64,000 nucleotides of DNA from Candidatus Micrarchaeota archaeon (GTDB lineage: Archaea; Micrarchaeota; Micrarchaeia; Norongarragalinales; SBBD01): assembly GCA_018819225.1 (NCBI GenBank), contig JAHJQN010000004.1, positions 287,302 through 351,301 on the forward strand, in the 5' to 3' direction. Shown here piece by piece: positions 41,332 to 56,002 of this stretch. The notes under the pieces are model-generated. The model saw nothing but the letters and a program-made list of their open reading frames with translations, was not told the origin of the DNA and searched no databases. Each line of letters opens with the position of its first letter. The stretch's first letter is position 1. The position numbers and the translations under genes are program-made.

Positions 41332-41373
41332 AGTGCAGGGGGAGTAAGCGCAGCCGTGGGCTTGAAGCAGACC
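41332..41373 (-). repeat. att-like repeat L1
   Basis: AGTGCAGGGGGAG..AGCC-gtg-GGCT..GCAGACC. Confidence 0.75.
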
Positions 41374-41403
41374 ATCGGAATCCTTGTCCGAAGAAACATT
41401 TAA

Positions 41404-41435
41404 ATATTTATCAGTTGATATATTTATCGGTTGAT
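41404..41435 (+). promoter_or_regulatory. Tandem 16-bp repeat, putative antitoxin operator
   Basis: ATATTTATCAGTTGAT / ATATTTATCGGTTGAT immediately before ATG 41440. Confidence 0.55.
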
Positions 41436-41439
41436 TAAT

Positions 41440-41724
41440 ATGGAAAATATCTTCGTTTCGTTCAAGCCCCGGAATTTGGACCGCTATCCCCGGCTGGATA
41501 CCGTACTCATGGTGGAAAAGGAACTCTTCAAGCACCGTAGCGACAAGACGATTACGGAAATCTGGAGAGGACTTCCAAGGAAAGTCCTGTGGACGACGTA
41601 CACCACCATTCTTGATTACTTGGAATATTCGGGCAAGATCCACATCGAGAAGGACAAAACGATTACGTGGCTCTGGAACCCCCAGCTATTGGAGCGAATA
41701 AAACGAGAGGGCATCGAAGCATGA
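41440..41724 (+). CDS. Putative wHTH antitoxin
   Basis: PRLDTVLMVE..LPRKV..ILDYLEYSGKI; homologous to 43599..43874; stop overlaps toxin start (ATGA). Confidence 0.65.
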   Translation: MENIFVSFKPRNLDRYPRLDTVLMVEKELFKHRSDKTITEIWRGLPRKVLWTTYTTILDYLEYSGKIHIEKDKTITWLWNPQLLERIKREGIEA

Positions 41725-42071
41725 ACGATTCCCGCACTATCCGCGTGCGCTTTGTAGACAGGAAGCTATACGAGACATACCTCAAGTTGAAGGCGGGAAA
41801 AACGGAAGAAAAGAGACTGGCGGAATACTTGGAACGAGCCATCCAAGACCTCAAGAAGGACCCGTTTTGCGGCATCCAAATCCCCCGTAGACTATGGCCG
41901 AAGGATTACGTGCGAAAATACGGCATCAACAACTTGCGGAAGTACGATTTGCCGAACGGCTGGCGATTAGTTTACACGCTGGTCGGCAACCAAATCGAGA
42001 TTGTTTCCATCCTCTTGGAATGGTTCAAGCATAAAGAGTACGAAAAACGCTTTCATTACAAGGTAAGATAA
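41721..42071 (+). CDS. RelE-like toxin
   Basis: LKKDPFCG, YGINNLRKYDLPNGWRLVYTL, HKEYEKRF. Confidence 0.7.
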   Translation: MNDSRTIRVRFVDRKLYETYLKLKAGKTEEKRLAEYLERAIQDLKKDPFCGIQIPRRLWPKDYVRKYGINNLRKYDLPNGWRLVYTLVGNQIEIVSILLEWFKHKEYEKRFHYKVR

Positions 42072-42083
42072 CCATTTTCACGT

Positions 42084-42128
42084 CTGAGTGCAGGGGGAGG
42101 GCAGCGAGCCTATGGCTCTGTGCAGACC
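42084..42128 (-). repeat. att-like repeat L2
   Basis: CTGAGTGCAGGGGGAG..GAGCC-tat-GGCTC..GCAGACC. Confidence 0.78.
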
Positions 42129-42195
42129 GGCTTGTCGTGTATTCGTAGTCATATTTGTAGAAACCTTTATATATTTGTAGTCACCTAAGGATCGT

Positions 42196-43137
42196 ATGCA
42201 TATCGAGATTCGCACGATCGGCAGGAAAAAGAAATTCTACCTTGCTCATTCGTACCGCCGGCAAGGGAAAGTAGTTAAACTGCGGGTTTATCTGGGGTCT
42301 GGCCTTTCCTCAGACGAATTGGCTGCAAGGAAGGTCCGTGCTGAAGAGCGTCTCAGTTTTCGGATTTCGGCAATAGGCTCAATCCGAGATCCGTTTCAAA
42401 CGGCTCTCTCCGCCAGCGAACTGCGGGAACTTGAAACACTCGAAACCAGGGGGGAAATCGCAGTAAGGTACCTGTCGGAAGAGGACTGGCGCAAATTCAC
42501 CGAAGCGTTCGCATTCGACACCAACGCCATCGAAGGCTCTTCGGTTCTTGCAAACGAAGTCGGCGACATTCTGGAAAGGGACAAGTGGCCGGACAAACCG
42601 AAAGAAGACATTTCCGAGACTTACGGGGTTGCCAAGGCAATCGAATTCATACGAAAGACCAAAGACCCCGTTTCCATTCCCCTCGTACTCGAACTCCACC
42701 GGCTGGTCTTCCGGAATTCGAAACCGTTTGCTGGAAGGCTGCGCGGTCGAGGTGTCGAAGTGGTAATCGGCGACGGGAGAGGCAACGTCATCCACCGCGG
42801 CGCGCCTTCCACGCAGGTGCGTAGCCTACTGGGCAAGCTAGTCAAATGGTACGGTGAGAACAAGAAAAAATATCCTCCACTGGTACTGGCCGCCGTGGTG
42901 CATAACCAGTTCGAGAACATCCACCCGTTCCAGGACGGCAACGGCCGAGTCGGAAGGCTGCTATTGAACAACATCCTCCTCAAGCACGGCCTTCCCCCGC
43001 TAAACATCGAGCTCCGCAACCGGCAGGAATACTACGCCGCCCTGCAGGAATACGAGCGCAGCCAGAACATCCGGCCGACAATCGAGCTGATGCTTAAGGA
43101 ATACCGCGCCCTCAAGCGGCTGCTCAAGAAAAGGTGA
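42196..43137 (+). CDS. Fic-domain protein (class II, N-terminal inhibitory motif)
   Basis: HPFQDGNGRVGR active site; TNAIEG fits (S/T)xxxE(G/N); basic beta-rich N-terminal domain. Confidence 0.92.
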   Translation: MHIEIRTIGRKKKFYLAHSYRRQGKVVKLRVYLGSGLSSDELAARKVRAEERLSFRISAIGSIRDPFQTALSASELRELETLETRGEIAVRYLSEEDWRKFTEAFAFDTNAIEGSSVLANEVGDILERDKWPDKPKEDISETYGVAKAIEFIRKTKDPVSIPLVLELHRLVFRNSKPFAGRLRGRGVEVVIGDGRGNVIHRGAPSTQVRSLLGKLVKWYGENKKKYPPLVLAAVVHNQFENIHPFQDGNGRVGRLLLNNILLKHGLPPLNIELRNRQEYYAALQEYERSQNIRPTIELMLKEYRALKRLLKKR

Positions 43138-43186
43138 CTACAAACCCGCAAGCGTAGTCACCCAATGCGCAAACCCCTGGAACTCA

Positions 43187-43240
43187 CAGCCCAAGGCTGA
43201 GTGCAGGGGAAGTAGCTCAAGCCAACGTCTTGCTGCAGTC
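43187..43240 (-). repeat. att-like repeat L3
   Basis: CAGCCCAAGGCTGAGTGCAGGG matches 44020-44041 at 21/22; followed by CAAG..CTTG hairpin and GCAG. Confidence 0.8.
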
Positions 43241-43245
43241 TCTGA

Positions 43246-43602
43246 TCACTTGCGTTTGTAACCGAACCGCTTATCGTATGTCCCGTGAGGACTGATTTCA
43301 AGGACGAAGGCAACAATTTCAACTTCTGTTCCCCCTTCGGTCAGCGAATACAGCATTCTCCAGAATTGAGGGAGTTCTACGCGGAACAGGTTCTTGATCC
43401 CGTACTTCCGCTTGTACTCGTCAGGAATCTTATCTTTAGAGATGGGCTCTCCATAATGAATGTTGGCCTTGATCAGCTCGACTTTTTTATTGATTGCGTT
43501 CAGGATGCTCCTGTCGCGTTTTGACTTGGGTGCTCGCTCATTCAAATACCGGTACACTTTCTCAGCTTCCGGCGAGAGAACGACTCGGACGGTCTTGTTC
43601 AT
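43246..43602 (-). CDS. RelE-like toxin
   Basis: YGIKNLFRVELPQFWRMLYSL, HGTYDKRFGY; homologous to 41721..42071. Confidence 0.7.
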   Translation of the reverse strand: MNKTVRVVLSPEAEKVYRYLNERAPKSKRDRSILNAINKKVELIKANIHYGEPISKDKIPDEYKRKYGIKNLFRVELPQFWRMLYSLTEGGTEVEIVAFVLEISPHGTYDKRFGYKRK

Positions 43603-43874
43603 AGCTCAAGGCCTCTGGCAATGGCTTTCCTGAGAGCAGGATTGTCATTGGCGATCCATGAAATACCTTTCAGGGAAACAGCGATCTTGTTGCTGGCCTC
43701 CAAATATTCTAAAATAACCATCAAGGTATAGTGGTTGACCTGCTTCGGAAGCATTCTTTTCAGTTCGGCAATTGTAATGACGCTCTTCTTCATGTTTGCC
43801 AAAACCTCTTCCACCATGATGACGGTTTTCAAGTTCGGCGCATGCGCAAATTCCACGTTATACATAGTCATCAC
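43599..43874 (-). CDS. Putative wHTH antitoxin
   Basis: PNLKTVIMVE..LPKQV..ILEYLEASNKI. Confidence 0.65.
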   Translation of the reverse strand: MMTMYNVEFAHAPNLKTVIMVEEVLANMKKSVITIAELKRMLPKQVNHYTLMVILEYLEASNKIAVSLKGISWIANDNPALRKAIARGLEL

Positions 43875-43971
43875 TTTATTTTACAAATTCATAACCTATT
43901 TGTATTTATTAGTATATTTAAGCCTTTCGGTACCTCGTTTTAACTAATCAAAGGAAATAGGTAGAAGCGTA

Positions 43972-44009
43972 CAGCCTATAGGGGAAGTCACCGTAGACGA
44001 TTCTACAGC
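43972..44009 (-). repeat. Degenerate att-like repeat L4
   Basis: CAGCC..AGGGGAAGT as in L3, plus hairpin ACCGTAGA-cgat-TCTACAGC. Confidence 0.45.
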
Positions 44010-44034
44010 TGGGCACTTCCAGCCCAGGGCTGAG

Positions 44035-44179
44035 TGCAGGGAGAGGGATTTGAACCCTCGAAGCTTCTACAGCACAGGATTTCCTAAAACCCTTTCTTTT
44101 CTCGTCGAGGTCTTTTCTTTACAAAAAGAAAAGAGGTCGCTTAAGTCCCGCCCCTTTGACCGAACTTGGGTACCCCTGC
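44035..44179 (-). tRNA. tRNA-Leu(UAA) with 59-nt canonical intron (44081..44139)
   Basis: gcagggg/tccctgc, A73; cggga-CT-TAA-G|..|A-tcctg; long variable arm; gaggg-TTCAAAT-ccctc. Confidence 0.92.
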
Positions 44180-44261
44180 GTAAACCTTTTTTTAATGAAA
44201 GCTTAAAAGCGTCATGGATACGCCTAGATGAATGAACTCATAGGCGTTAATGCGCCGCGGA

Positions 44262-44426
44262 TTACTTGCCTCCGCCCTTGGCTTCCTTTCGGCGCGCGCG
44301 CTTGGGTCGCAAATGAGGATAATTGCACTTGCGGCACTTCACCGTCCCTTTCGGATTGCGCGTCTTGCATTTCAAGCAAACGACGACCGATAGAAACGCT
44401 TTGTCAGCTAAAGGAAACTTGCCCAT
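44262..44426 (-). CDS. rpl40e: 50S ribosomal protein eL40 (absent from ORF track)
   Basis: Hand translation: MGKFPLADKAFLSVVVCLKCKTRNPKGTVKCRKCNYPHLRPKRARRKEAKGGGK*. Confidence 0.9.
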   Translation of the reverse strand: MGKFPLADKAFLSVVVCLKCKTRNPKGTVKCRKCNYPHLRPKRARRKEAKGGGK

Positions 44427-44547
44427 ACTGGTTCACGAAAACTTCTGTAAAAGAAGAGAATACTGGTATGGCTACCAACGTTTTTAAAGGCTATTTTGTC
44501 CTAAGAAAGAGGTAGCTGCTTCTTTACCCCGATGGTTGATTTGACAT

Positions 44548-44708
44548 GCCTCCGTAGCTCAGTAGTAGAGACGGAACCTTTTCTTTTTTAATAGAAAAGC
44601 TTCACCAAAAGAAGAAGCGAATAAAAGCGCCTCCGTAGCTCAGTAGTAGAGCGCGAACCTTTTCTTTAATAAAGAAAAGCTTCACCAAAAGAAAGCGCGT
44701 ATTCCCAT
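44548..44708 (+). repeat. Two ~80-bp units, each a tRNA-Thr 5' fragment plus a U/A-rich hairpin element
   Basis: GCCTCCGTAGCTCAGTAGTAGAG at 44548, 44629 and 44709. Confidence 0.9.
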
Positions 44709-44780
44709 GCCTCCGTAGCTCAGTAGTAGAGCGCTTCCTTGGTAAGGAAGAGGTCGCGGGTGCGATTCCCGCCGGAGGCT
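44709..44780 (+). tRNA. tRNA-Thr(GGU), intronless
   Basis: gcctccg/cggaggc; cttcc-TT-GGT-AA-ggaag; T loop TGCGATT. Confidence 0.88.
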
Positions 44781-44793
44781 TGAATTCTTTTTT

Positions 44794-46881
44794 TTAATTT
44801 CGTATCTTCTTGTGAATGACGCGTTTACGTTTGTCGTGGAAGAACCAAGCACTCGCTACAGCCACTGAAAAGAGTAGAATAAGCCAGACGCTGTTAGAGA
44901 AAAGACCTCGTTCCTCTTGACGACGTCGATATTCTTGTTCAGCCGCAAGATACCCTGACTCTCCCCGCAAAACGGTTTGTTTCGGAATCCCCACCATCAA
45001 TGGACTGCCACCAGGAGGCCAGCGAGTCGGAACCGGTGAAGGAGTGACCGTGGATTCGGGCTCGCCCATTCCAGAAGGAACGTACTCCAGATCATTCGTT
45101 ATCAACAGCTTGTCTAATTGCATTCCATCCTCACGGTTGCGAACCGTCAACGTATGGAAACCAGCGGAAAGATCAAACGCAAGAGGATCCAAAGGAGGAG
45201 AACGGCTGTTCGCGACATCCCACCGCCACACGTTGCCGCCCGCCGTATCCCAAATATATTCTGCACCGCCATCCATGCGAATGAACACGCTGTCTGCTGC
45301 CGTGTGAGGAGACAATTCACGACCCCAAACGCGATATTCTCCTGAAACGGGAACCTCGAAAGAATAGGTCAAGAGGTCGGCGTCGCCGCCTGCATTGAAC
45401 GGAACGAGCACGAATTCGCCATTGGAAGCGTCTTCATCCACATCAATGACCCACGCTCCGAGCAAGGACGAAAAGTGTTCGGCCTCCACCCAATAATAGG
45501 AGTATCCCGGAACAGCCGTAGGAGAACATGAACCCAAACAACATACGCCGGACCCGCAATACCCTTCATCCTCCAAGAAACAATCATCGTAGAAACCGCA
45601 GTTGGCGCGACACGACCCACCCAATGCTTCGCAAGGAACGGGTGTCGGCGTGCTCGTGCACGATCCGATACAGCAGATTCCAGTCGAACAATAACCCTCG
45701 GCATCCCAAACGCATTCATTGAATTGACTACAATCCTCTAAACATTGTCCGCCCAAATCCTCCTCGCAATAAATATCCGAGCCGCCGCCTTCAAAAGTCA
45801 GCGTGGCCTGGATGAGATTGAAGGAATCGAACGATCCTTGTCCGGAAAACACGAGCCAAACCGTTTCTCCATTCGCGCTGATCCACTTGCTCGGAAAATT
45901 GTAAAAGAATGAAGGCTCGTAATCCCAAGAATCAAAAATGGCTACGGTATACCAGGGCCCCCAAGGATTCGGTGCCTCAAAAATAGACATGCCGCTACCT
46001 GAAACCCCGCCGTTGTCTCCCACGTGGTGATCGCCGACCAATAAGTACCTCCCCGAAGGAGAATGATACGTGACAACCGGAGGTGCCCAACCCACATTCT
46101 CTTTAATGAAAACGGGTTGTCGGAGAGTCAAGTCATTCGTCCATTGGTTTAAACCAGTCGAGAATTCATACTGATCCCGATCCCAAATGAAATCTTTAGG
46201 AACGCGCATTAAATCCACTTCCCCGGGAACCTGAACCTTGAGACCGGTAGCATCCTTCAACCGCGTCGCGTACATATACACGAATCCATCCGGCGACGCC
46301 GCATCCTCCCCGTACTGCGAGATGCTGGGTAAAATCAATTCGTTTTCTTCAGTGAACATCCAATTGTTTTGAAGTTCCCAAGTTGCCCCATGATCGTACG
46401 AACGCGCCAGCCTCGCATTATCGTAATTCATATTATTGGAACCCGGACTGACCCACATGTATAATACGCCATCAATGGAAACGATCCCGTAAGACTTGCC
46501 GGTAAACGTAGCGGGATTTTCTGCAGCACACGAAGCAGGAGGCGCATGTTCTGGATTTTCGCAACTGCCGTCCCCCAACGCATGGCACCCCCATAAATTG
46601 ACGGGCACGAAATCGACGGCATCCCCTTCAATGCGAGTTAAACCCAAACTAGCGCGACAAAGGGTATTGGATCCTTCAAAACCGCCTCCGTCACCCCAAC
46701 TCGTGTATTGATGACCGTCATCCGCCCAAGTCATCGGAAAATTATCGCTTCCTGAAGCGGCATTGAAATAGGTCGCAGGATTAAACGAGATGTCGGTAAT
46801 GACGGTGCTTGACGGATACGCCACGTTCAGCGAAAGAAAACATATGAAAAAAACAAGAAAGGTACGGAATGCCCCTCGCAT
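44794..46881 (-). CDS. Secreted membrane-anchored protein: DUF4185-like beta-propeller/glycosidase-like domain, Cys repeats, CBM-like domain
   Basis: Signal peptide; SDNFPMTWADDG, Asp-box SYDHGATW, EAPNPWGPW; two C..LGG.C repeats; EAE...REDG...D jelly-roll motif; C-terminal TM. Confidence 0.65.
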   Translation of the reverse strand: MRGAFRTFLVFFICFLSLNVAYPSSTVITDISFNPATYFNAASGSDNFPMTWADDGHQYTSWGDGGGFEGSNTLCRASLGLTRIEGDAVDFVPVNLWGCHALGDGSCENPEHAPPASCAAENPATFTGKSYGIVSIDGVLYMWVSPGSNNMNYDNARLARSYDHGATWELQNNWMFTEENELILPSISQYGEDAASPDGFVYMYATRLKDATGLKVQVPGEVDLMRVPKDFIWDRDQYEFSTGLNQWTNDLTLRQPVFIKENVGWAPPVVTYHSPSGRYLLVGDHHVGDNGGVSGSGMSIFEAPNPWGPWYTVAIFDSWDYEPSFFYNFPSKWISANGETVWLVFSGQGSFDSFNLIQATLTFEGGGSDIYCEEDLGGQCLEDCSQFNECVWDAEGYCSTGICCIGSCTSTPTPVPCEALGGSCRANCGFYDDCFLEDEGYCGSGVCCLGSCSPTAVPGYSYYWVEAEHFSSLLGAWVIDVDEDASNGEFVLVPFNAGGDADLLTYSFEVPVSGEYRVWGRELSPHTAADSVFIRMDGGAEYIWDTAGGNVWRWDVANSRSPPLDPLAFDLSAGFHTLTVRNREDGMQLDKLLITNDLEYVPSGMGEPESTVTPSPVPTRWPPGGSPLMVGIPKQTVLRGESGYLAAEQEYRRRQEERGLFSNSVWLILLFSVAVASAWFFHDKRKRVIHKKIRN

Positions 46882-46925
46882 GGAACCACCTATTTCTTAC
46901 TAGTCTTCCTCGGTTTTAATAAGTG

Positions 46926-46969
46926 CGGGCTTTGCACCTTTTGGGCGAGCCACGCCGGAGGCTTACGGA
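46926..46969 (+). repeat. att-like repeat T1
   Basis: 39/44 identical to 47517-47560; contains tRNA-Thr 3' end CGCCGGAGGCT. Confidence 0.85.
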
Positions 46970-46993
46970 AAAGCATGACAAAAAGGCGATCGA

Positions 46994-47236
46994 TTAGGAA
47001 TAAATATTCTGACGGTGCCCCGCGTCATGCAAGCGAACGGCGTTCTTGCTTAAAGAGTAAATGATCCGGTAGTCGCCGACCCGCAAGCTAAAGAAATTCG
47101 ACAGGCGCCCGTGAAGCCGTTTGCCCGCGCGAGGAAATTGGCCAAGAAGCGTAACTTCACGGAGCAGCCGCACCCGAATATTGCGAGGCAACTTGCGGAA
47201 AGACTTTTGGAAGTGATTGGAATAAAGCACTTCCAT
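46994..47236 (-). CDS. RelE/ParE-family toxin
   Basis: FQKSFRKL, GKRLHG, SLRVGDYRIIY, GHRQNIY. Confidence 0.88.
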   Translation of the reverse strand: MEVLYSNHFQKSFRKLPRNIRVRLLREVTLLGQFPRAGKRLHGRLSNFFSLRVGDYRIIYSLSKNAVRLHDAGHRQNIYS

Positions 47237-47241
47237 GCGAA

Positions 47242-47436
47242 TTACACCTTCAGATTAACAATGGAATGAAATCGGCCATCCGAAAAATCCTTCTCAGATG
47301 AACGAATTCCTTTTAGTAGTTTCTTGTCTGCGAGGACTTCCAGCGTTTCCTGCAAAGATTCGAAAGCATCCCTGGCTTCTTCAAAGCTCTTCTTCGCTGC
47401 GTTCAATTCCTTCCGAATAGATGAACCGACGTACAT
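47242..47436 (-). CDS. Putative antitoxin
   Basis: FESLQETLEVLADKKLLKGIRSSEKD (YefM/RelB-like C-terminus), upstream of toxin. Confidence 0.65.
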   Translation of the reverse strand: MYVGSSIRKELNAAKKSFEEARDAFESLQETLEVLADKKLLKGIRSSEKDFSDGRFHSIVNLKV

Positions 47437-47516
47437 TCTAAGTCCCTTACAACAGCAGTAAAACGAGCTTTATAATACTTGCTAGACACGAGCGCCATTG
47501 GATTTGTCTCGAGGTA

Positions 47517-47560
47517 CGGGCTTTGCACCTTTTGGCCGAGTCCCTCCGGAGGCTTCCGGA
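47517..47560 (+). repeat. att-like repeat T2
   Basis: CGGGCTTTGCACCTTTTGGCCGAGTCCCTCCGGAGGCTTCCGGA. Confidence 0.85.
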
Positions 47561-47636
47561 TTTTTAGATTTCAACGGCAGCATACCCTTCCGAAAGGAAT
47601 ATATATGGACTTAGTTCATATTGATATGGTGATAAC

Positions 47637-47867
47637 ATGGTGCATGCATTAGTCAATATTTCGGAAGAAGCAAACCGCGTGTTGAACGTGATTAAAGCGA
47701 AAAAGAATTTGCGAACCAAATCAGAGGCGATTGAGGAGATGGCGCGAGAGTACGAGCAAGAACTCTTGGAACCCGAACTTCGACCGGAATACGTGGAACG
47801 CATTCGGAAAATCGGCAAGCAAAAAACGATTACAGTGAAGGACTTCGAAAAAGAGTTTCTGAGCTGA
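47637..47867 (+). CDS. DUF2683-like antitoxin
   Basis: NRVLNVIKAK..L..KSEAI, LEPELRPEY. Confidence 0.75.
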   Translation: MVHALVNISEEANRVLNVIKAKKNLRTKSEAIEEMAREYEQELLEPELRPEYVERIRKIGKQKTITVKDFEKEFLS

Positions 47868-47874
47868 TGGCGGC

Positions 47875-48141
47875 ATGTATGGTCTCGAAGTGTCTCCGGA
47901 AGCGTATGCCCGGTTCAAAAAGATGCGAAAAAAGAACCGCTGGCTACTCGAAGTCATTGGCAAGAAGGTCCGGCATATACGCGAGCGCCCCCATCATTTC
48001 AAACCGCTTCATTTCCCCCTTCATAACAAACGACGGGTCCATATTGCGGGATCGTTTGTACTCGTCTATGAAATCAGGGAAAAAGACAAAACCGTTGTCA
48101 TCATAGACTTCGACCACCACGATAACGTTTACATGAAATGA
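47875..48141 (+). CDS. RelE/StbE-family toxin
   Basis: HFKPL, RRVHIAGSFVLVYEI, FDHHDNVY. Confidence 0.85.
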   Translation: MYGLEVSPEAYARFKKMRKKNRWLLEVIGKKVRHIRERPHHFKPLHFPLHNKRRVHIAGSFVLVYEIREKDKTVVIIDFDHHDNVYMK

Positions 48142-48188
48142 CGGAATCGGTTTAAGCGAACGAATGGATGGGGGTATATCGTTTGAAT

Positions 48189-48205
48189 GAGTCCGGCCGG
48201 AGGCT
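48189..48205 (+). repeat. att-like repeat T3 (distal, degenerate)
   Basis: GAGTCC-G-GCCGGAGGCT, followed by a T-tract at ~48219. Confidence 0.6.
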
Positions 48206-49766: not shown

Positions 49767-50486
49767 ATGGAATTCAAGGGAAAAAAAGCATTGATTACCG
49801 GAAGCGCCGTGCGATTCGGAAGACATGTGGCGCTCGAGCTCGCGAAACAAGGTGCGGACGTCGCCATCCACTACCGAGACAGTGAAAAGGAAGCGGAAAA
49901 AGTCGTTAATGGAATCAAGGAAATGGGGAGGAAAAGCCAGGCGTTTCCCGCGGAGTTGACAGACGCAAAGCAAGCCGTGAAAATGGTGCGGGATGCCTCC
50001 GAGTTTTTGCACGGACTCGACATTCTTGTGAACAACGCCTCCTCGGTATACGTACATAAACACGTGACGGAAGTGCAACCGGATGAATGGAAGCGCGTGC
50101 TCGACACGGATTTGAACGGGGCGTTTTACTGCACGCATGCCGTGCTCCCCATCATGCACATGCAAAAATACGGGCGCATCATCAACATGGGAGCCGTCGG
50201 TTGCGGAATCATTCAAGCCAAACCCCTCACCACAGCATATTCCGCAGCGAAAACCGGTTTATTGATTCTAACAAAAAGCGTGGCTGCATCAGAAGTGCAA
50301 AACGGGATTACCTGCAACATGGTATCTCCCGGCATCATGGAAATCAGCGAAGAAAAACGAAACGTTCCATTGAAACGATACGCGAAATACGATGAAGTGT
50401 TGCGAGCGGTCTTGTTCCTCGCCAGCGAGAAAAGCGCGTATATCACGGGACAAAACATGGAGGTCGCGGGTGCGTACCAGCTGTGA
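49767..50486 (+). CDS. Short-chain dehydrogenase, FolM/pteridine reductase-like
   Basis: TGSAVRFG, AIHY, NNAS, YSAAK; overlaps folE start. Confidence 0.8.
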   Translation: MEFKGKKALITGSAVRFGRHVALELAKQGADVAIHYRDSEKEAEKVVNGIKEMGRKSQAFPAELTDAKQAVKMVRDASEFLHGLDILVNNASSVYVHKHVTEVQPDEWKRVLDTDLNGAFYCTHAVLPIMHMQKYGRIINMGAVGCGIIQAKPLTTAYSAAKTGLLILTKSVAASEVQNGITCNMVSPGIMEISEEKRNVPLKRYAKYDEVLRAVLFLASEKSAYITGQNMEVAGAYQL

Positions 50487-50968
50487 AACGAATCATCAAG
50501 CCCCAAAAACTCGCGGAAATGCTGGAATTCTTTAATGAAGGGTATGAAACGAATTGGAAAAAAGTACTGAAAACCAGGAAAAGCGGCGAACACGGGGAAG
50601 TGGTATTCCGAAAGATTCCGTTCCACAGTTTATGCGAACACCACGGCCTGCCGTTCCACGGGGAATGCACGATCGCGTACTTGCCGAACGGGAAATTGCT
50701 GGGGCTTGCGAGATTTCTCCAACTCGTGGAAGCGTTGAGTCATCGAATGCAGATTCAAGAAAAACTGACGCGCGAGATCGCGGAAAAGCTGCAAAAATAC
50801 GTCCGGCCTAAAGGCGTTGCGGTTTTTATGAAAGGAACGCATTTCTGCACCGTCATTTCCAGCGGAAAAACAACGGATATGGAAACCGCGTTCTTTACGG
50901 GCGACTATGAAAAAAGCGAGGGAAGAAAAAACGCGTTTTTAATCCGAGCTGGAAAAAGAGGGAAGTAA
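50483..50968 (+). CDS. folE: GTP cyclohydrolase I, short N-terminus
   Basis: SLCEHH.LPF.G, YLP, QIQEKLT, HFC. Confidence 0.85.
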   Translation: MKRIIKPQKLAEMLEFFNEGYETNWKKVLKTRKSGEHGEVVFRKIPFHSLCEHHGLPFHGECTIAYLPNGKLLGLARFLQLVEALSHRMQIQEKLTREIAEKLQKYVRPKGVAVFMKGTHFCTVISSGKTTDMETAFFTGDYEKSEGRKNAFLIRAGKRGK

Positions 50969-51475
50969 ATGATCATCAACCGAGAACAAATATTGCAACG
51001 CATTCTCCAAGACCAATTGATCACCCATTACCAGGAAATTAAAAGCCAGTTGCAACCCGCCGGATTTGACTTGCGCGTCGAAAAAGTGTATTCGTTTGAA
51101 AGCCAGGGCGCCATTGACTTCGACAATTCCGAGAGGAAAATCAGCGACGCGAAAGAGATGGAGTGGGAAAGCAATGGATGGCTGGAGTTGAAGCCCGGAA
51201 CGTATAAAGTGCAGTTCGCGGAAGAAGTGCGTTTGCCGGCGGACCTGGCGGCGCACACCATTTTGAGATCTTCATTGATGCGGTGCGGATGCGTCATGCA
51301 CCAAGGGTTCTGGGACCCGGGATACAACGGCAAAGGCGAAAGCGTCATCATCGTGGGAAATCCGAAGGGATTGAAGCTCAAGAAAGGAGCGAAAATCGCG
51401 CAAATGGTTTTTCACAAACTGGCGGCGGAAACGGATGCGTTATACGAAGGCATTCACCAGAGAGAAAACCTTTAA
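50969..51475 (+). CDS. Trimeric dUTPase / dCTP deaminase family
   Basis: QPAGFDL, RSSLMRCG, WDPGYNG, IAQMVF. Confidence 0.85.
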   Translation: MIINREQILQRILQDQLITHYQEIKSQLQPAGFDLRVEKVYSFESQGAIDFDNSERKISDAKEMEWESNGWLELKPGTYKVQFAEEVRLPADLAAHTILRSSLMRCGCVMHQGFWDPGYNGKGESVIIVGNPKGLKLKKGAKIAQMVFHKLAAETDALYEGIHQRENL

Positions 51476-52557
51476 CGGAAAGGACGCGAGTGCCTGCGCA
51501 GTTTGAAAATGCTGGGCTGGAATCCTAAAGAAGATGCCACGCGCTTGTAGACCAGATCCATTTCCTTCGGATGCATGGCAGCCCGCAAATCCGCTTCAAT
51601 GAGTACGGGAGGGTACGCATATTTCGGGTTGTGCTTGCTTAACGAATAAACCAGGGAGGTGAGGCGGTTGACGAAGGAGAGAGGGTGCTTGGTTTCCTGC
51701 TGGGGAAGAAGGAAATCGATGCGTAACGGGCGATCGTATTTCACCGCCTTAAGATACACGCTGCAGATACGCTCGCGAAAAACCCCCAAGTCTTTAAGAA
51801 TCGGATGTTCAGGGAGAGCCGAATAGCGGAACGCGAACGTGCGTTGCTTCGGTTCCAGCAACGTGAAAATGAACGCGGTGTCGTTGGTGCGCTCAAGAAT
51901 TTGAGTTTGAGCAGCGGGAAGTGAAAGCTCGCGCTTCAATAGGGATAGAAAGTGCTTGCCTTTCGAATCCTTGATGATGCCCAGTAGCATGCAATTCTTT
52001 TCTTCGCATACCGCGTACAGTTCGAGAAGCTGTTTGACGAGTAGCCGGTAATCCGCGTATAACGGTGAATCATGCGGGGGCTTGTCGGAAAGTTGAGGTA
52101 CAATGGAACCGTCCAGAAACAACGCGTCAACGGAATGAATTTTCACGATCTCGAGCGCGCGGGAAATTTCGGAGTTCAAGCGCTTGAGGTTCTTGAACCA
52201 CGCGAACTCGTGGGTATCCAGAGCGGCCGGTGTAAACACGTCGTAAGGCGGGAACCCCGACGGAATAAACGAATAGGATTTGAGTTTGCTGTGCTCGTAC
52301 TTGAATACGACGGCTGCGCTGCGCACGAGCAACAAATCAAGGGAGTGCAGTTCTTCGGCGAGCAATCCGCCATCCACGGCAGAAATGGAGCCGTTGACCT
52401 CTGAATCCACTACGGGAACCATGAGCTTCGAGTCCAACAAATCGTTAGCGCCGAACTCTGGAGAATTTTTTTTTAAGTGGCTGGCAAAGGATTGAAGGCG
52501 CGATTCCGTTTCGCGAATATCGTGCACGGCTCTCTGAATCGCTTCCTCGTTGATCAT
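51472..52557 (-). CDS. nurA: NurA nuclease
   Basis: AVDGG, LDGSI, GIIKDS, YAYPPVLIEADLRA. Confidence 0.85.
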   Translation of the reverse strand: MINEEAIQRAVHDIRETESRLQSFASHLKKNSPEFGANDLLDSKLMVPVVDSEVNGSISAVDGGLLAEELHSLDLLLVRSAAVVFKYEHSKLKSYSFIPSGFPPYDVFTPAALDTHEFAWFKNLKRLNSEISRALEIVKIHSVDALFLDGSIVPQLSDKPPHDSPLYADYRLLVKQLLELYAVCEEKNCMLLGIIKDSKGKHFLSLLKRELSLPAAQTQILERTNDTAFIFTLLEPKQRTFAFRYSALPEHPILKDLGVFRERICSVYLKAVKYDRPLRIDFLLPQQETKHPLSFVNRLTSLVYSLSKHNPKYAYPPVLIEADLRAAMHPKEMDLVYKRVASSLGFQPSIFKLRRHSRPFR

Positions 52558-52569
52558 AAGTACTCGAAC

Positions 52570-52677
52570 TCAACGGCGCGGCCGGTATTGATAAAGGAAT
52601 CGGTGCGTCTTTTCCGATGGAGGAGCGCGTTCCTGCACCACGCGTTCCTTGACTTCCACCACGCGCGGTTTCTTCAA
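52570..52677 (-). CDS. 35-aa peptide (absent from ORF track)
   Basis: TTG start with GGTGG SD; MKKPRVVEVKERVVQERAPPSEKTHRFLYQYRPRR*; fills gap between E2 and nurA. Confidence 0.5.
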   Translation of the reverse strand: MKKPRVVEVKERVVQERAPPSEKTHRFLYQYRPRR

Positions 52678-52679
52678 TA

Positions 52680-53159
52680 TTATCCACCTTTCGTGACGAT
52701 GCGCGGCCGCTTGAACGCGTACTGGCCCTCAAAAGCCCGAGGATTCTCGTCAAAGAAGCGCGCGGCCTCAATGTTTAACGGAGAGCGAGGGTTCGGATGT
52801 CCTAACATGTATTGAATCGCGTGGCAAACCGATACGAGCGTTTGCGACGCCGCCCATTCGTTGACGAGTTGAATGCAGACTTTACCGTCATTCTCGCGGA
52901 TGTTGGGATGAAATAACGGGGTGAGCCAAACGAGCTCGAGACCACCCGCATACGGGTAATCGCGTTTCACGGTCATCCGCAAGCGATGCGAATGAATAGG
53001 GGTGACGCGGCCTTGCGAACGCTGAAAACCCTTTCCAGAGAAAGCGACTTCATACTCCGTGAGATCCGAATTGACGCGGAACGAGAAAGGGCTTTTCTGC
53101 ATTTGAGCGTGTTCGGACTCGAGTCGACGCTTGAACACGGCTTCCGGTAAAAACGGCAT
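52680..53159 (-). CDS. Ubiquitin-conjugating enzyme E2 (UBC fold)
   Basis: RRL..E, DYPY, TPLFHPNI....GKVCI (catalytic Cys), PNPRSPLNIEAA. Confidence 0.92.
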   Translation of the reverse strand: MPFLPEAVFKRRLESEHAQMQKSPFSFRVNSDLTEYEVAFSGKGFQRSQGRVTPIHSHRLRMTVKRDYPYAGGLELVWLTPLFHPNIRENDGKVCIQLVNEWAASQTLVSVCHAIQYMLGHPNPRSPLNIEAARFFDENPRAFEGQYAFKRPRIVTKGG

Positions 53160-53189
53160 GCGGTCCTCCCCCCTTACAAAAAAAGAGAA

Positions 53190-53432
53190 TTAACCGCCCG
53201 TGGGATCGGGCATGAGCAATAAAACGTCGTTCTCGTTCACTCCCGCTTCCGCAAGAGTCACTGCAGGATCCAGAATCTTGTTGTCTTGAGTCGCAAGAAC
53301 AAAACGATCCTTCAACTGAAGGGTTTCCGTGAGCACTTCCAGAATGCTGGCCACCGTGAAATTAGGTTCGACGGCAAGAACCGTCTCTTTCCCGGAAGTC
53401 GTGTGATTAACCGTGATATTGAATTCCGCCAT
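53190..53432 (-). CDS. Ubiquitin-like protein ending in Gly-Gly
   Basis: 80 aa; VEP..TV..I, ILD...TLAEAGV.END.L.L, C-terminal TGG*; AGGTGA SD. Confidence 0.88.
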   Translation of the reverse strand: MAEFNITVNHTTSGKETVLAVEPNFTVASILEVLTETLQLKDRFVLATQDNKILDPAVTLAEAGVNENDVLLLMPDPTGG

Positions 53433-53521
53433 GCACTTCACCTGTTGCCTCGACGAACGAAATATAGTGCGCAAAGCTATTAATCCCTTTCGTTATATGT
53501 AGGTTCAAAGGGGGATGAAGC

Positions 53522-53809
53522 ATGGCCGGAAAGCCGCGCGTCGTAAAAGTCACGAGCCAGAAGAAGCCCCGCGTCGTTCGGGAAGACGATTACAGTCTGA
53601 TGCTGAAATCGGAAGAGAACGAGGAGGAGCGGCCCAAGCACGTGGTCTTTGAAGGCTTGAATAAACAAGCGGGAGACGCTCCAAGAGACAAGCTGCGGGA
53701 AGAAGCACTGAAAGACATCACGCCACTCGAGAAAGGAAAAACGCTGGAGCAAGAAGGGGAAGCGCCCAGCCTCCAAAAACGCGTAAGAAAGTTCATGGGA
53801 ATGAAGTAA
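53522..53809 (+). CDS. Hypothetical charged protein with two KPRVV motifs
   Basis: First gene of divergent unit with JAMM and RING-like genes. Confidence 0.6.
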   Translation: MAGKPRVVKVTSQKKPRVVREDDYSLMLKSEENEEERPKHVVFEGLNKQAGDAPRDKLREEALKDITPLEKGKTLEQEGEAPSLQKRVRKFMGMK

Positions 53810-53810
53810 T

Positions 53811-54281
53811 ATGCCGGAATTCGACGTGTATATGGACGCGAAAGCGTTGCACGCCGCAGAAAAACACGTGAGGCACATGGCGCGCGAAGGAAAAGAAGGC
53901 ATGGGCTTGCTGATCGGAAACCGGTATTCGTGGGAAGGAGAAGAGTACGTGTGCGTGGACGAGTTCATTACGGCGAAAAACCAGGCTTCATCTGCCAGCG
54001 TGCAATTCGCACGCGAAGCCTTCCCGGAACTCGCCAAAAAAATCAAGAAGCGATTCTCGAAAAAAATGGTGGTGGGATGGATTCACTCGCATCCCGGCTA
54101 CGGATGTTTTCTCTCTTCAACCGATATCGGGACTCAGAACGCGTACTTTAACGAATCCTATCACGTGGCATTCGTGATGGATCCAACCAAACAAGAGAAC
54201 GAGCGCCTGCTGAACCGAGCGTTTCGCGTAAATGAGGAAGGGTATTACGCAGTATCATTCGTTGTAGTCGAAAAAATGTGA
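53811..54281 (+). CDS. JAMM/MPN+ metalloprotease (Rpn11-like)
   Basis: EGMGLLIG; VVGWIHSHPGYGCFLSSTDI. Confidence 0.93.
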   Translation: MPEFDVYMDAKALHAAEKHVRHMAREGKEGMGLLIGNRYSWEGEEYVCVDEFITAKNQASSASVQFAREAFPELAKKIKKRFSKKMVVGWIHSHPGYGCFLSSTDIGTQNAYFNESYHVAFVMDPTKQENERLLNRAFRVNEEGYYAVSFVVVEKM

Positions 54282-54287
54282 CGCATT

Positions 54288-55217
54288 ATGGAAGAACCGT
54301 TCGGGTTACCGGAAACGCCGATGGCAGAGGAACCGCATATTGAAAAAACGGGGGCGAAACCCCGCAAGAGGAAACTGAAAAAGAAAAAAACGAGTAAGCC
54401 CAAGCTGCAAAAATTCGACGTGGTTCTGCTGCAATTGCTGAAGGAAGGCGTCAGTTCGTTGGAAGAACTTCAACGAATATTTAATGTGCATGAAAGAGAG
54501 TTTTTGAAACGATTGCAGACGCTTATGAGACGCAAACTCATCGTCATGGATGAGGAAAAAAAGGGGTTGAAGCTCTCGATAGCAGGAGTCAATGCGTATC
54601 AACCGCGCTGGAAAGAAGCCGCGGACGCGTGGCTGGAACGCAAAGCAATGGCGTGGGTGCCGGACGTGGAAGAAGAAACCACCAGTATACCCGTGGAGGA
54701 AACGCCGCCGAAACTCGAACCAGAAAAAACGAATGAGATCATCGAATTTCCTGAAGAACCGCCGAAAGAAAAGAAAACGGAACTGGATTTGACGGAATTA
54801 ATGGAAAAATACGGGCCCAACGAAGCCCAGCGCATTCGGAACAGCAAACAAAGCCCGTTTCTGGAACGTCACGTGAAAAAAAGAGCGGAGAAGAACGAAC
54901 GCCCGCGAATTGAATTAAAACGTCCTGAACCCGTCGTGCAACAAACCGTGTTCAGTCAGAAGAATATCAGGATGGATCATGAAAAAAGGGAGTCGTGCGA
55001 GTTATGCAAGGGAACGTTCGTCACGAGCGTGAATTCGGCAAAGAATCGCCCGAAGTACGGGCATTGTTTCTGCGGGGCCGCGTATCATAAAGACTGCTTT
55101 GAAGCGATCGTGCAAGGGGACAAGCATTGCATTAACTGCGGAAGAAAGCTCGCGCTCGCATTGGACATGAAAGCGGAGGAAGCCGTGAAAGATCTCGAAG
55201 ACTTGTCGGCCACATGA
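54288..55217 (+). CDS. wHTH plus C-terminal C4HC3 RING-like zinc-finger protein (putative E3)
   Basis: CELC...CFC-x4-HKDC...CINC; N-terminal wHTH-like segment. Confidence 0.7.
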   Translation: MEEPFGLPETPMAEEPHIEKTGAKPRKRKLKKKKTSKPKLQKFDVVLLQLLKEGVSSLEELQRIFNVHEREFLKRLQTLMRRKLIVMDEEKKGLKLSIAGVNAYQPRWKEAADAWLERKAMAWVPDVEEETTSIPVEETPPKLEPEKTNEIIEFPEEPPKEKKTELDLTELMEKYGPNEAQRIRNSKQSPFLERHVKKRAEKNERPRIELKRPEPVVQQTVFSQKNIRMDHEKRESCELCKGTFVTSVNSAKNRPKYGHCFCGAAYHKDCFEAIVQGDKHCINCGRKLALALDMKAEEAVKDLEDLSAT

Positions 55218-55258
55218 AATCCGCAATGAACGATATCATCGATAAAAAGGTCTTCTCG

Positions 55259-55942
55259 TTATTGGTGGGCTTTTTTAATTAGATGGGTCAAACGACGCAC
55301 TTCAGATGAAGCGATGCGGTCCCACAGCCCAAACTTTCGTCCTAGAACACGTTTTTGTAATACACCTAGAGCCGTTTCGGTTACACCATGTCCTAGAGTA
55401 AAATGATCGAATTGTTCCCGAGTGGGCTCCGGAGAACTAAATTTGTTCTGTAGCTTTCGCTCAAATTCATTCAAACGGCCCCAACCGCCGAAACCGACGT
55501 GAAATCGATTTTCAGGAGGAAGGATGCGGGAATATGATCGATTGGTAAACGGTAACCAACCCAATACTCTTGGCCATCGATTAATTCGATTCCAACGCTC
55601 GCCTGCTTTCGTTCGTGCAGGGGTGGGAAGCGCCCATAATTTCTTCGTATTGCGAAGAACCTTCAACAAATTGGTCCGATGTTGCTCCACATTAGGTAGA
55701 CGGGATTCCCGACGCTGACCGATGCGACGCTCGATACTATTTAGTTCAATCTGATTGTGCAATATTTGCATCAAGCGGTTGCGTTGAGCGTTATGTAATC
55801 CAAATCGTTCGTGTTCACCGATGCGGCCCATTAACTCGCGCTGGGCCCGATCCATGTGTTCCCCGAGATCTGGACGTCGAGTCGATTGAACGATTCTTTC
55901 GAGTTCTTGCGATTCAAACAACTGGGACGTTCTTGCGGGCAT
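55259..55942 (-). CDS. Hypothetical Arg-rich protein
   Basis: 227-aa ORF with its own TATA-like upstream region. Confidence 0.5.
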   Translation of the reverse strand: MPARTSQLFESQELERIVQSTRRPDLGEHMDRAQRELMGRIGEHERFGLHNAQRNRLMQILHNQIELNSIERRIGQRRESRLPNVEQHRTNLLKVLRNTKKLWALPTPARTKAGERWNRINRWPRVLGWLPFTNRSYSRILPPENRFHVGFGGWGRLNEFERKLQNKFSSPEPTREQFDHFTLGHGVTETALGVLQKRVLGRKFGLWDRIASSEVRRLTHLIKKAHQ

Positions 55943-56002
55943 AACCGGTTATCACTAAATAGTTATTACGAAAAAAGAAGTATATATGGCTTTGTTTCCC
56001 CA

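What the first reader, a model, noticed from the sequence alone, without database searches (positions are those of the whole stretch)
41332..48205. Candidate new system: integron-like arrays of integrase-free mini-cassettes anchored on tRNA 3' ends
Seen: two divergent tRNA genes (Leu-UAA minus strand, Thr-GGU plus strand) are each followed by three small modules of about 0.6-2.2 kb. Each module ends in a short repeat carrying the last ~9-11 nt of that same tRNA, usually preceded by an imperfect hairpin. The two arrays use different repeat sequences matched to their own tRNA but share this architecture. Cargo is four RelE-type TA pairs, one Fic gene and one surface protein, in either orientation. 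No integrase, transposase or replication gene is present. Known: tyrosine integrases target tRNA 3' ends and leave displaced 3' fragments; integron cassettes are small, integrase-free, TA-rich and use folded attC hairpins. Inference: a hybrid arrangement in which a trans-acting recombinase stacks one- or two-gene cassettes behind tRNAs, using hairpin-plus-acceptor-strand sites that mimic a T arm and 3' end.
Basis: partly seen in the sequence, partly recalled or inferred. Interest (0 to 1): 0.92.

Follow-up and report, generated by a model that had tools for sequence, protein, structure and literature searches.

The report
Integrase-free cassettes stacked behind archaeal tRNAs
Six small gene modules, mostly toxin-antitoxin pairs, are stacked behind two tRNA genes of a tiny uncultured archaeon, and they appear to use the docking sites of an ordinary tRNA-targeting integrase carried by a larger island of the same organism, not a new integron-like hairpin mechanism.

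Summary
In detail: tRNA-Leu(UAA) and tRNA-Thr(GGU) of a Micrarchaeota archaeon (order Norongarragalinales) are each followed by three integrase-free units of 0.6-2.2 kb, each ending in a copy of the tRNA's last ~11 nt. The mechanism proposed is not supported. The six sites fold no better than shuffles and lack attC boxes. The Leu sites look like dyad att sites: inferred 7-bp overlap (tRNA positions 63-69) between ~20-bp inverted arms. The same anatomy and the same 11-nt identity limit mark 14 integrase-bearing islands and 39 integrase-free units across Micrarchaeota. A second assembly of this organism holds a full-length 369-aa tyrosine integrase, missing from the binned genome, whose own att junction has the Leu overlap and similar arms. 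Close homologues of the Fic and one TA cassette recur as Leu-bounded units in other genomes at other positions. Best reading: CIME-like accretion of minimal non-autonomous elements, probably mobilised in trans. The Thr array is more decayed and its enzyme less certain. No excision product or strain variation was seen. The scan noted similar arrays before in other archaea; new here are the candidate enzyme and the site anatomy.

The parts
44035..44179 (-). tRNA-Leu(UAA) with ~59-nt intron; its last 11 nt (44035-44045) are the att core
44013..44034 (-). right att arm of the first Leu unit (palindromic 11-mer starting 2 nt after the discriminator)
43599..43874 (-). antitoxin-like gene of Leu unit 1 (91 aa); 81-82% identical homologues in Leu-bounded cassettes of G001 and L128
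43246..43602 (-). RelE-like toxin of Leu unit 1 (118 aa); no Pfam hit, >1000 homologues, the named ones from DPANN archaea
43180..43240 (-). Leu junction 1: left arm, 11-nt core (43202-43212), right arm
42196..43137 (+). Fic gene of Leu unit 2 (313 aa, canonical Fic motif); same cassette, 72% nt, in a Leu array of G011
42067..42127 (-). Leu junction 2: left arm, core (42089-42099), degenerate right arm
41721..42071 (+). RelE/ParE toxin of Leu unit 3 (116 aa); 75% identical homologue at the far end of the tRNA-Phe array of G004
41440..41724 (+). antitoxin-like gene of Leu unit 3 (94 aa)
41334..41372 (-). terminal Leu site: left arm and core (41334-41344), then a T-rich flank taken as the original tRNA trailer
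44709..44780 (+). tRNA-Thr(GGU); last 11 nt (44770-44780) are the att core; no recognisable right arm follows
44794..46881 (-). 695-aa secreted or membrane-anchored protein (DUF4185-like), cargo of Thr unit 1
46923..46985 (+). Thr junction 1: conserved left arm, core (46953-46963), degenerate right arm
46994..47436 (-). TA pair of Thr unit 2 (64-aa putative antitoxin 47242-47436; ParE toxin 46994-47236)
47514..47576 (+). Thr junction 2: conserved left arm, core (47544-47554)
47637..48141 (+). TA pair of Thr unit 3 (DUF2683/RHH antitoxin 47637-47867; ParE toxin 47875-48141)
48165..48205 (+). terminal Thr site: core (48195-48205) with a divergent left arm

Best explanation
The six units are minimal non-autonomous integrative elements stacked by repeated site-specific integration at tRNA 3' ends (CIME-type accretion). 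Each unit is right att arm, one or two cargo genes, left att arm, closed by an 11-nt copy of tRNA positions 63-73. Inferred mechanism: a ~370-400-aa tyrosine integrase with a C-terminal zinc ribbon binds ~20-25-bp dyad half-sites on double-stranded DNA and exchanges strands across a 7-bp overlap (positions 63-69); the last four tRNA bases come from the element's right half-site, so the tRNA is restored and stays a target. For Leu the likely enzyme is the full-length integrase of a defence island of this same organism, acting in trans. For Thr the enzyme is probably a separate clade, like the integrase behind the orthologous tRNA-Thr(GGU) of G001; those units have largely lost their right arms and may be immobilised. 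The TA cargo plausibly stabilises the units. Shown: anatomy, shared registers, presence of the integrase, recurrence of cassettes as units. Inferred: cleavage positions, trans activity, order of events, current mobility.
For: Identity between flanking repeats is 1.00 at position -11 and 0.43 at -12 in 14 integrase islands, and 0.95 and 0.46 in 39 integrase-free units. Arms are inverted repeats in a fixed register (17 nt left, 2 nt right of the discriminator): mean 12.4 and 10.6 matches of 22 against 7.2 background; 23 of 39 units score >=10 where 9.5% is expected. A second assembly of this organism (99.99% identical to contig C1 over 10.4 kb) has a 369-aa integrase with intact catalytic motifs; its junction has the Leu overlap, forms a near-perfect dyad (z -5), its left arm matches the window's three left arms at 11-12 of 18 positions, and it is followed by further integrase-free TA units. 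In G004 one integrase island and five integrase-free units share arms behind tRNA-Phe. About 35 of 78 related integrases start within ~400 nt of a Leu core or a Leu or Thr tRNA 3' end. The Fic cassette recurs in G011 and the first TA cassette in G001 and L128, each next to Leu sites, at other places with other neighbours. The window's Thr left arm shares a 9-mer in register with the right arm of the G001 integrase island at the orthologous tRNA, the best match among 32 Thr flanks. No copy of the tRNA 3' end was found behind the orthologous Thr tRNA in most relatives examined.
Against: No excision junction or circle was seen, and the only other samples (depth 2) are identical where covered. No second genome of this genus exists for comparison. 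The window's Thr units score 6, 9, 6 for arm symmetry, not above background, and no intact Thr integrase was found in this organism. Window Leu overlaps differ from tRNA-Leu(UAA) at up to two bases. The right arms of the window match the integrase junction's right arm at only 7-9 of 18. The same TA family also occurs without att sites in four of five homologue loci examined. Repeats were picked by core match, so positions -1 to about -10 are selected; kin are not independent.
Confidence: 0.72

Rival explanations
1. Fossil remnants only: each unit is a once larger integrase island that shrank by internal deletion in place and no longer moves on its own (it can at most be carried along in cis by an adjacent island).
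For: Thr right arms and the third Leu right arm are degenerate. The organism's integrase at tRNA-Ser lacks its N-terminal ~120 aa. No excision seen. CIMEs are defined as such deletion derivatives (PMC7563491).
Against: Units carry no integrase or replication remnants and the arms lie within about 10-160 bp of the cargo genes. The same cassette with the same ends occurs in different families at different loci. Many units of 0.5-1.2 kb keep both arms.
Confidence: 0.15
2. One reading: an integron-like system in which a recombinase recognises folded single-stranded sites that mimic the tRNA T arm and acceptor strand.
For: Intact junctions are long inverted repeats that could extrude a hairpin with the core in the loop (z -5 for the integrase junction). 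Cassettes are small, TA-rich and in arrays.
Against: The six window sites fold no better than shuffles and have no attC boxes. Arrays also begin at non-tRNA sites with only the 11-nt core. The integrase scores 46.8 against the IntI cut-off of 265. Cargo lies in both orientations with its own AT-rich upstream region.
Confidence: 0.07
3. A serine recombinase, casposase-like Cas1 or HUH transposase built the arrays.
For: Earlier scan notes link similar arrays in bacteria to serine recombinases (unchecked). A Cas1 gene exists in the genome.
Against: No resolvase, large serine recombinase or Y1 transposase was found in the 90%-complete genome. Cas1 sits in an ordinary CRISPR-cas locus with an array. 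The arms are those of tyrosine-integrase islands.
Confidence: 0.04

Closest known systems
CIMEs and microCIMEs, site-specific accretion in streptococci (PMC7563491)
   Same: Integrase-free units that keep att sites, stacked in tandem at the 3' end of a target gene, sometimes beside an autonomous element; cargo-bearing 1.2-13 kb and gene-less 130-220 bp classes.
   Different: Archaeal host; no conjugation module seen on the helper islands; many units are smaller (0.5-1.2 kb) and are bare TA pairs; whole arrays without a helper in cis; use of several tRNAs and of secondary non-tRNA sites suggests trans mobilisation.
Archaeal tRNA-targeting tyrosine-integrase elements and their tandem arrays (PMC8371274, PMC6563490)
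   Same: 3'-end sublocation, att identity as short as 8-14 bp, tandem re-use of one site, integrated elements lacking an integrase.
   Different: A search combining Micrarchaeota, tRNA, integrase, genomic island and toxin-antitoxin found no paper. Extended ~20-bp inverted arms and a zinc-ribbon integrase clade that I could not assign to a named family.
Integron cassette arrays and CALINs, including archaeal ones (PMC9668308)
   Same: Arrays of small, TA-rich, integrase-free gene units separated by recombination sites; recombinase can be supplied in trans.
   Different: No attC boxes, no significant folding, no IntI or attI; each unit has arms on both sides; mixed orientation; anchored on tRNA 3' ends.

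Membership tests
Integron / CALIN | attC sites with RYYYAAC and GTTRRRY boxes 40-140 nt apart | tested here: not met
   none within 160 nt of any of the six sites, either strand
Integron / CALIN | sites fold into a stable single-stranded hairpin | tested here: not met
   z -1.0 to +1.3 for the six window sites; only the integrase island's own junction folds, z -5
Integron / CALIN | IntI-type integrase | tested here: not met
   369-aa integrase 46.8 bits against cut-off 265 for TIGR02249
Integron / CALIN | single-strand-specific recombination | not testable with these tools
   needs a recombination assay
CIME-type accretion | units flanked by att sites but lacking recombination and transfer genes | tested here: met
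CIME-type accretion | att sites related to those of integrase-encoding elements at the same kind of target | tested here: met
   Leu; Thr rests on one 9-mer in register
CIME-type accretion | tandem arrangement with an autonomous element | tested here: inconclusive
   not in the window; seen at another locus of this organism and in G004, G011, G022, L192, L208
CIME-type accretion | derivation from an ICE or IME and transfer only by cis-mobilisation | not testable with these tools
   no conjugation genes noted on helper islands; transfer route unknown
XerA/dif modules | chromosomal XerA acting on dif-like sites | tested here: not met
   110 bits against cut-off 220 for NF040815; integrases are patchy, island-borne, found in 19 of 31 genomes
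SSV-type suicidal integrase elements | att site splits the integrase gene | tested here: inconclusive
   not so for the Leu clade (att lies ~110 nt upstream of the start); the Ser and G001 Thr integrase frames run into the tRNA 3' end
Casposon or serine-recombinase cassette (SCC-like) | solo Cas1 with terminal repeats, or a large serine recombinase | tested here: not met
   genome is 90% complete

The most novel reading that the evidence does not exclude
Micrarchaeota run a shared gene-cassette pool: 0.5-1.2 kb units that are not just decayed islands but excise singly, travel between species and are re-inserted in trans at several tRNAs and at bare 11-nt secondary sites by island-borne zinc-ribbon tyrosine integrases. 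That would be a functional analogue of integrons built on compact (~55-bp) double-stranded att sites.
Probability: 0.35. Interest if true: 0.7.

Novelty: new variant of a known kind. Interest (0 to 1): 0.47.

Why it matters
DPANN archaea have tiny genomes and a poorly described mobilome. This gives a concrete route by which they gain TA, Fic, defence and surface genes, with a named enzyme and a defined site, so it can be tested in E. coli. A compact tyrosine integrase that needs only an 11-nt chromosomal match, and seems to tolerate overlap mismatches, could also be a tool. It is not a new recombination chemistry: tandem accretion at tRNA ends and integrase-less derivatives are known.

Tried and rejected
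Reads: only Logan contigs were available. No joint skips a unit exactly. The joint 44780 to 47518 is best explained by the paralogous Thr unit on C7 and was rejected as an excision product. Two low-depth runs from another study are identical where they cover sites 46963 and 48205, which is too thin to say anything about variation. The idea that the long Leu right arm encodes a displaced recombinase C-terminus (lead from scan notes e1-5078671, e1-5248317) was dropped: no integrase C-terminus examined resembles it, and in this organism the same arm follows a junction upstream of the integrase gene. I first called the integrase SNJ2-like; withdrawn, since that family is reported as restricted to Halobacteria (PMC8371274) and I did not test membership. 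The lone integrase of the binned genome (C2:97226-98143) is N-terminally truncated and Ser-associated, so it is not the Leu enzyme. The Thr left arm was found only in this genome among 401 and not in metagenome contigs; a Leu junction pattern was absent from viral contigs. Homologues of the last Thr toxin were too distant (32-59%, one 39-aa fragment 79%) to inform. The G001 Thr integrase has no close relatives. CRISPR spacers do not match the units. G025 and G060 share an identical stretch, probably a binning duplicate, and were counted once. Regex-based tRNA labels in the tree are unreliable where no tRNA was found, and the tree is a quick one.
Full report
Host and observation. The window is G000:C2:287302-351301 of a 1.37-Mb, 90%-complete genome. 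Named protein hits and named relatives place it in Micrarchaeota, order Norongarragalinales. tRNA-Thr(GGU) is at 44709-44780 + and an intron-bearing tRNA-Leu(UAA) at 44035-44179 -. Each is followed by three copies of its last ~11 nt, giving units of 833, 1113, 755 bp (Leu) and 2183, 591, 651 bp (Thr). Chance is excluded (about 1e-5 to 1e-7).

Site anatomy. Aligning Leu junctions from this and other genomes shows a right arm that starts 2 nt after the discriminator and a left arm whose reverse complement starts 17 nt before it; both fit AG(A/C)C-NNN-G(G/T)CT plus a few conserved bases. The centre of the 19-nt space between the arms is a 7-nt stretch at tRNA positions 63-69. In 14 integrase-bearing islands (3.3-15.4 kb) and 39 integrase-free units (0.47-5.5 kb), identity between the two flanking repeats is 1.00 and 0.95 at position -11 and falls to 0.43 and 0.46 at -12. 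Positions nearer the end were partly selected by my search, so the -11/-12 step is the informative part. Arm symmetry averages 12.4 and 10.6 of 22 against 7.2 for random pairs. The window's Leu units score 10, 12, 9; its Thr units score 6, 9, 6, no better than background. I infer a tyrosine-recombinase site with a 7-bp overlap and long dyad half-sites; the cleavage points are not shown. The hairpin claim fails: the six sites fold with z between -1.0 and +1.3 and have no attC boxes.

The enzyme. The binned genome has one tyrosine recombinase, behind tRNA-Ser(CGA), lacking its N-terminal ~120 residues, and no serine recombinase or Y1 transposase; its Cas1 is in a normal CRISPR locus. A second assembly of the same organism extends past the start of contig C1 (99.99% identity over 10.4 kb) and contains a full-length 369-aa integrase with intact catalytic motifs and a C-terminal zinc ribbon, inside a defence island with CARF, TIR and methyltransferase genes. 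The junction just upstream of that gene has the Leu overlap and is a near-perfect dyad (z -5); its left arm matches the window's three left arms at 11-12 of 18 positions, its right arm matches the window's right arms at only 7-9. It is followed by integrase-free units of 1843, 667 and 797 bp (TA pairs), a 17-kb defence unit and a 105-bp unit. The right arm behind tRNA-Leu(CAA) at the end of C7 is the inverted partner of this junction's left arm, so the island probably starts there, but the contigs are not joined. The protein is neither IntI nor XerA by curated cut-offs. It is 59-67% identical to a Micrarchaeota clade of which about 35 of 78 members start within ~400 nt of a Leu core or a Leu or Thr tRNA end.

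The Thr array. Its left arm occurs four times in this genome and nowhere else among 401 genomes. The orthologous tRNA-Thr(GGU) of G001 carries an integrase island, and its right arm shares a 9-mer in register with the window's left arm, the best of 32 Thr flanks. That integrase is sister to the truncated one of this genome, on long branches. So the Thr units likely belong to a second specificity, and with right arms mostly lost they may be stuck. This half rests on thinner evidence.

Modules as units. The Fic cassette recurs in a Leu array of G011 (another family), 72% identical at DNA level with matching ends. The first TA pair recurs between Leu sites in G001 and before a Leu site in L128. 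The third pair recurs just past the last mapped site of the tRNA-Phe array of G004, where one integrase island and five integrase-free units share arms. A Leu junction pattern hits 62 of 401 Micrarchaeota genomes, with few hits for the reversed control; G011 has nine. Several arrays and integrase islands start at non-tRNA sites holding only the 11-nt core, so a tRNA fold is not needed. Against this, the same TA family also sits without att sites in four of five homologue loci, most relatives show no 3'-end copy behind the orthologous tRNA-Thr, and reads gave no excision joint.

How it most likely works. An island-borne integrase recombines a circular unit's dyad site with the tRNA end or with an existing junction. 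The tRNA is restored and an 11-nt copy is left downstream, so units accumulate. Three Leu tRNAs of this organism carry units with the same arm family while only one integrase was found, which favours action in trans; passage of a helper island that later excised cannot be excluded. TA cargo would select against loss (established knowledge for TA systems, not tested here).

Comparison and novelty. This works like CIME and microCIME accretion (PMC7563491) and like tandem re-use of tRNA sites by archaeal tyrosine-integrase elements (PMC8371274, PMC6563490). It resembles integron arrays (PMC9668308) in outcome only and fails their defining tests. I found no paper on it in Micrarchaeota. The scan's own notes report similar arrays in other archaea without a named enzyme. 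Verdict: new variant of a known kind, interest 0.47; the trans-mobilised cassette pool (probability 0.35) would deserve 0.7.

Noticed in passing
window 44548-44708: Two extra copies of the 5' ~22 nt of tRNA-Thr(GGU), each followed by a T-rich/A-rich hairpin, at 80-81 nt spacing. Read depth of these pieces is 91 and 69 against 16 for the genome, so the tandem may be collapsed in the assembly.
   Followed up: partly
window 44081-44139 and genome-wide: The Leu(UAA) intron belongs to a hairpin repeat family also found in other tRNA introns, in 60-120-nt units that duplicate the 3' ends of nine other tRNAs and one orphan Leu end, and as a 47-nt tandem array at the C1 end and C6 start. It is not tRNA-specific and does not follow the 11-nt rule, so it looks like a separate element; already noted by the scan.
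   Followed up: partly
L269:12264-13373 (ENA contig of the same organism): Full-length tyrosine integrase and defence island (CARF, ThsB-like TIR, methyltransferase) missing from the binned genome G000.
   Followed up: yes
L269:10359-11450 versus G000:C1:194-206: 1092 bp (179-aa and 117-aa genes) present in the ENA assembly but absent from C1, between 13-nt direct repeats unrelated to tRNA ends; strain variant or assembly difference.
   Followed up: partly
G000:C2:95185-98143: N-terminally truncated integrase whose frame ends inside the tRNA-Ser(CGA) 3' end, followed by Ser-type units; a ~150-aa gene of this array recurs beside a Ser-type site in the tRNA-Thr(CGU) array at C2:195270, 55 bp from a Thr-type site.
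   Followed up: partly
G000:C5:140-4130, C6:34985-36823, C7:12538-14811, C7:35516-37412: Further 3'-end-bounded units behind tRNA-Asn, tRNA-Glu and tRNA-Leu(UAG), and an orphan Thr-type unit after ftsZ with no tRNA.
   Followed up: partly
window 42146-42187 and 43135-43163: Short GTAGTCAC-type inverted motifs at both ends of the Fic gene, conserved in the G011 copy; possibly operator sites of this cassette.
   Followed up: no
G000:C2:1-10346: CRISPR array with a Cas4-Cas1 fusion and Cas3, resembling type I-G, in a DPANN genome; spacers match none of the fetched loci.
   Followed up: partly
window 50213-59326 (L126): Near the array lie nurA, a ubiquitin-conjugating E2-like gene, a JAB gene and a 1980-aa protein with faint RHS/YD hits.
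   Followed up: no
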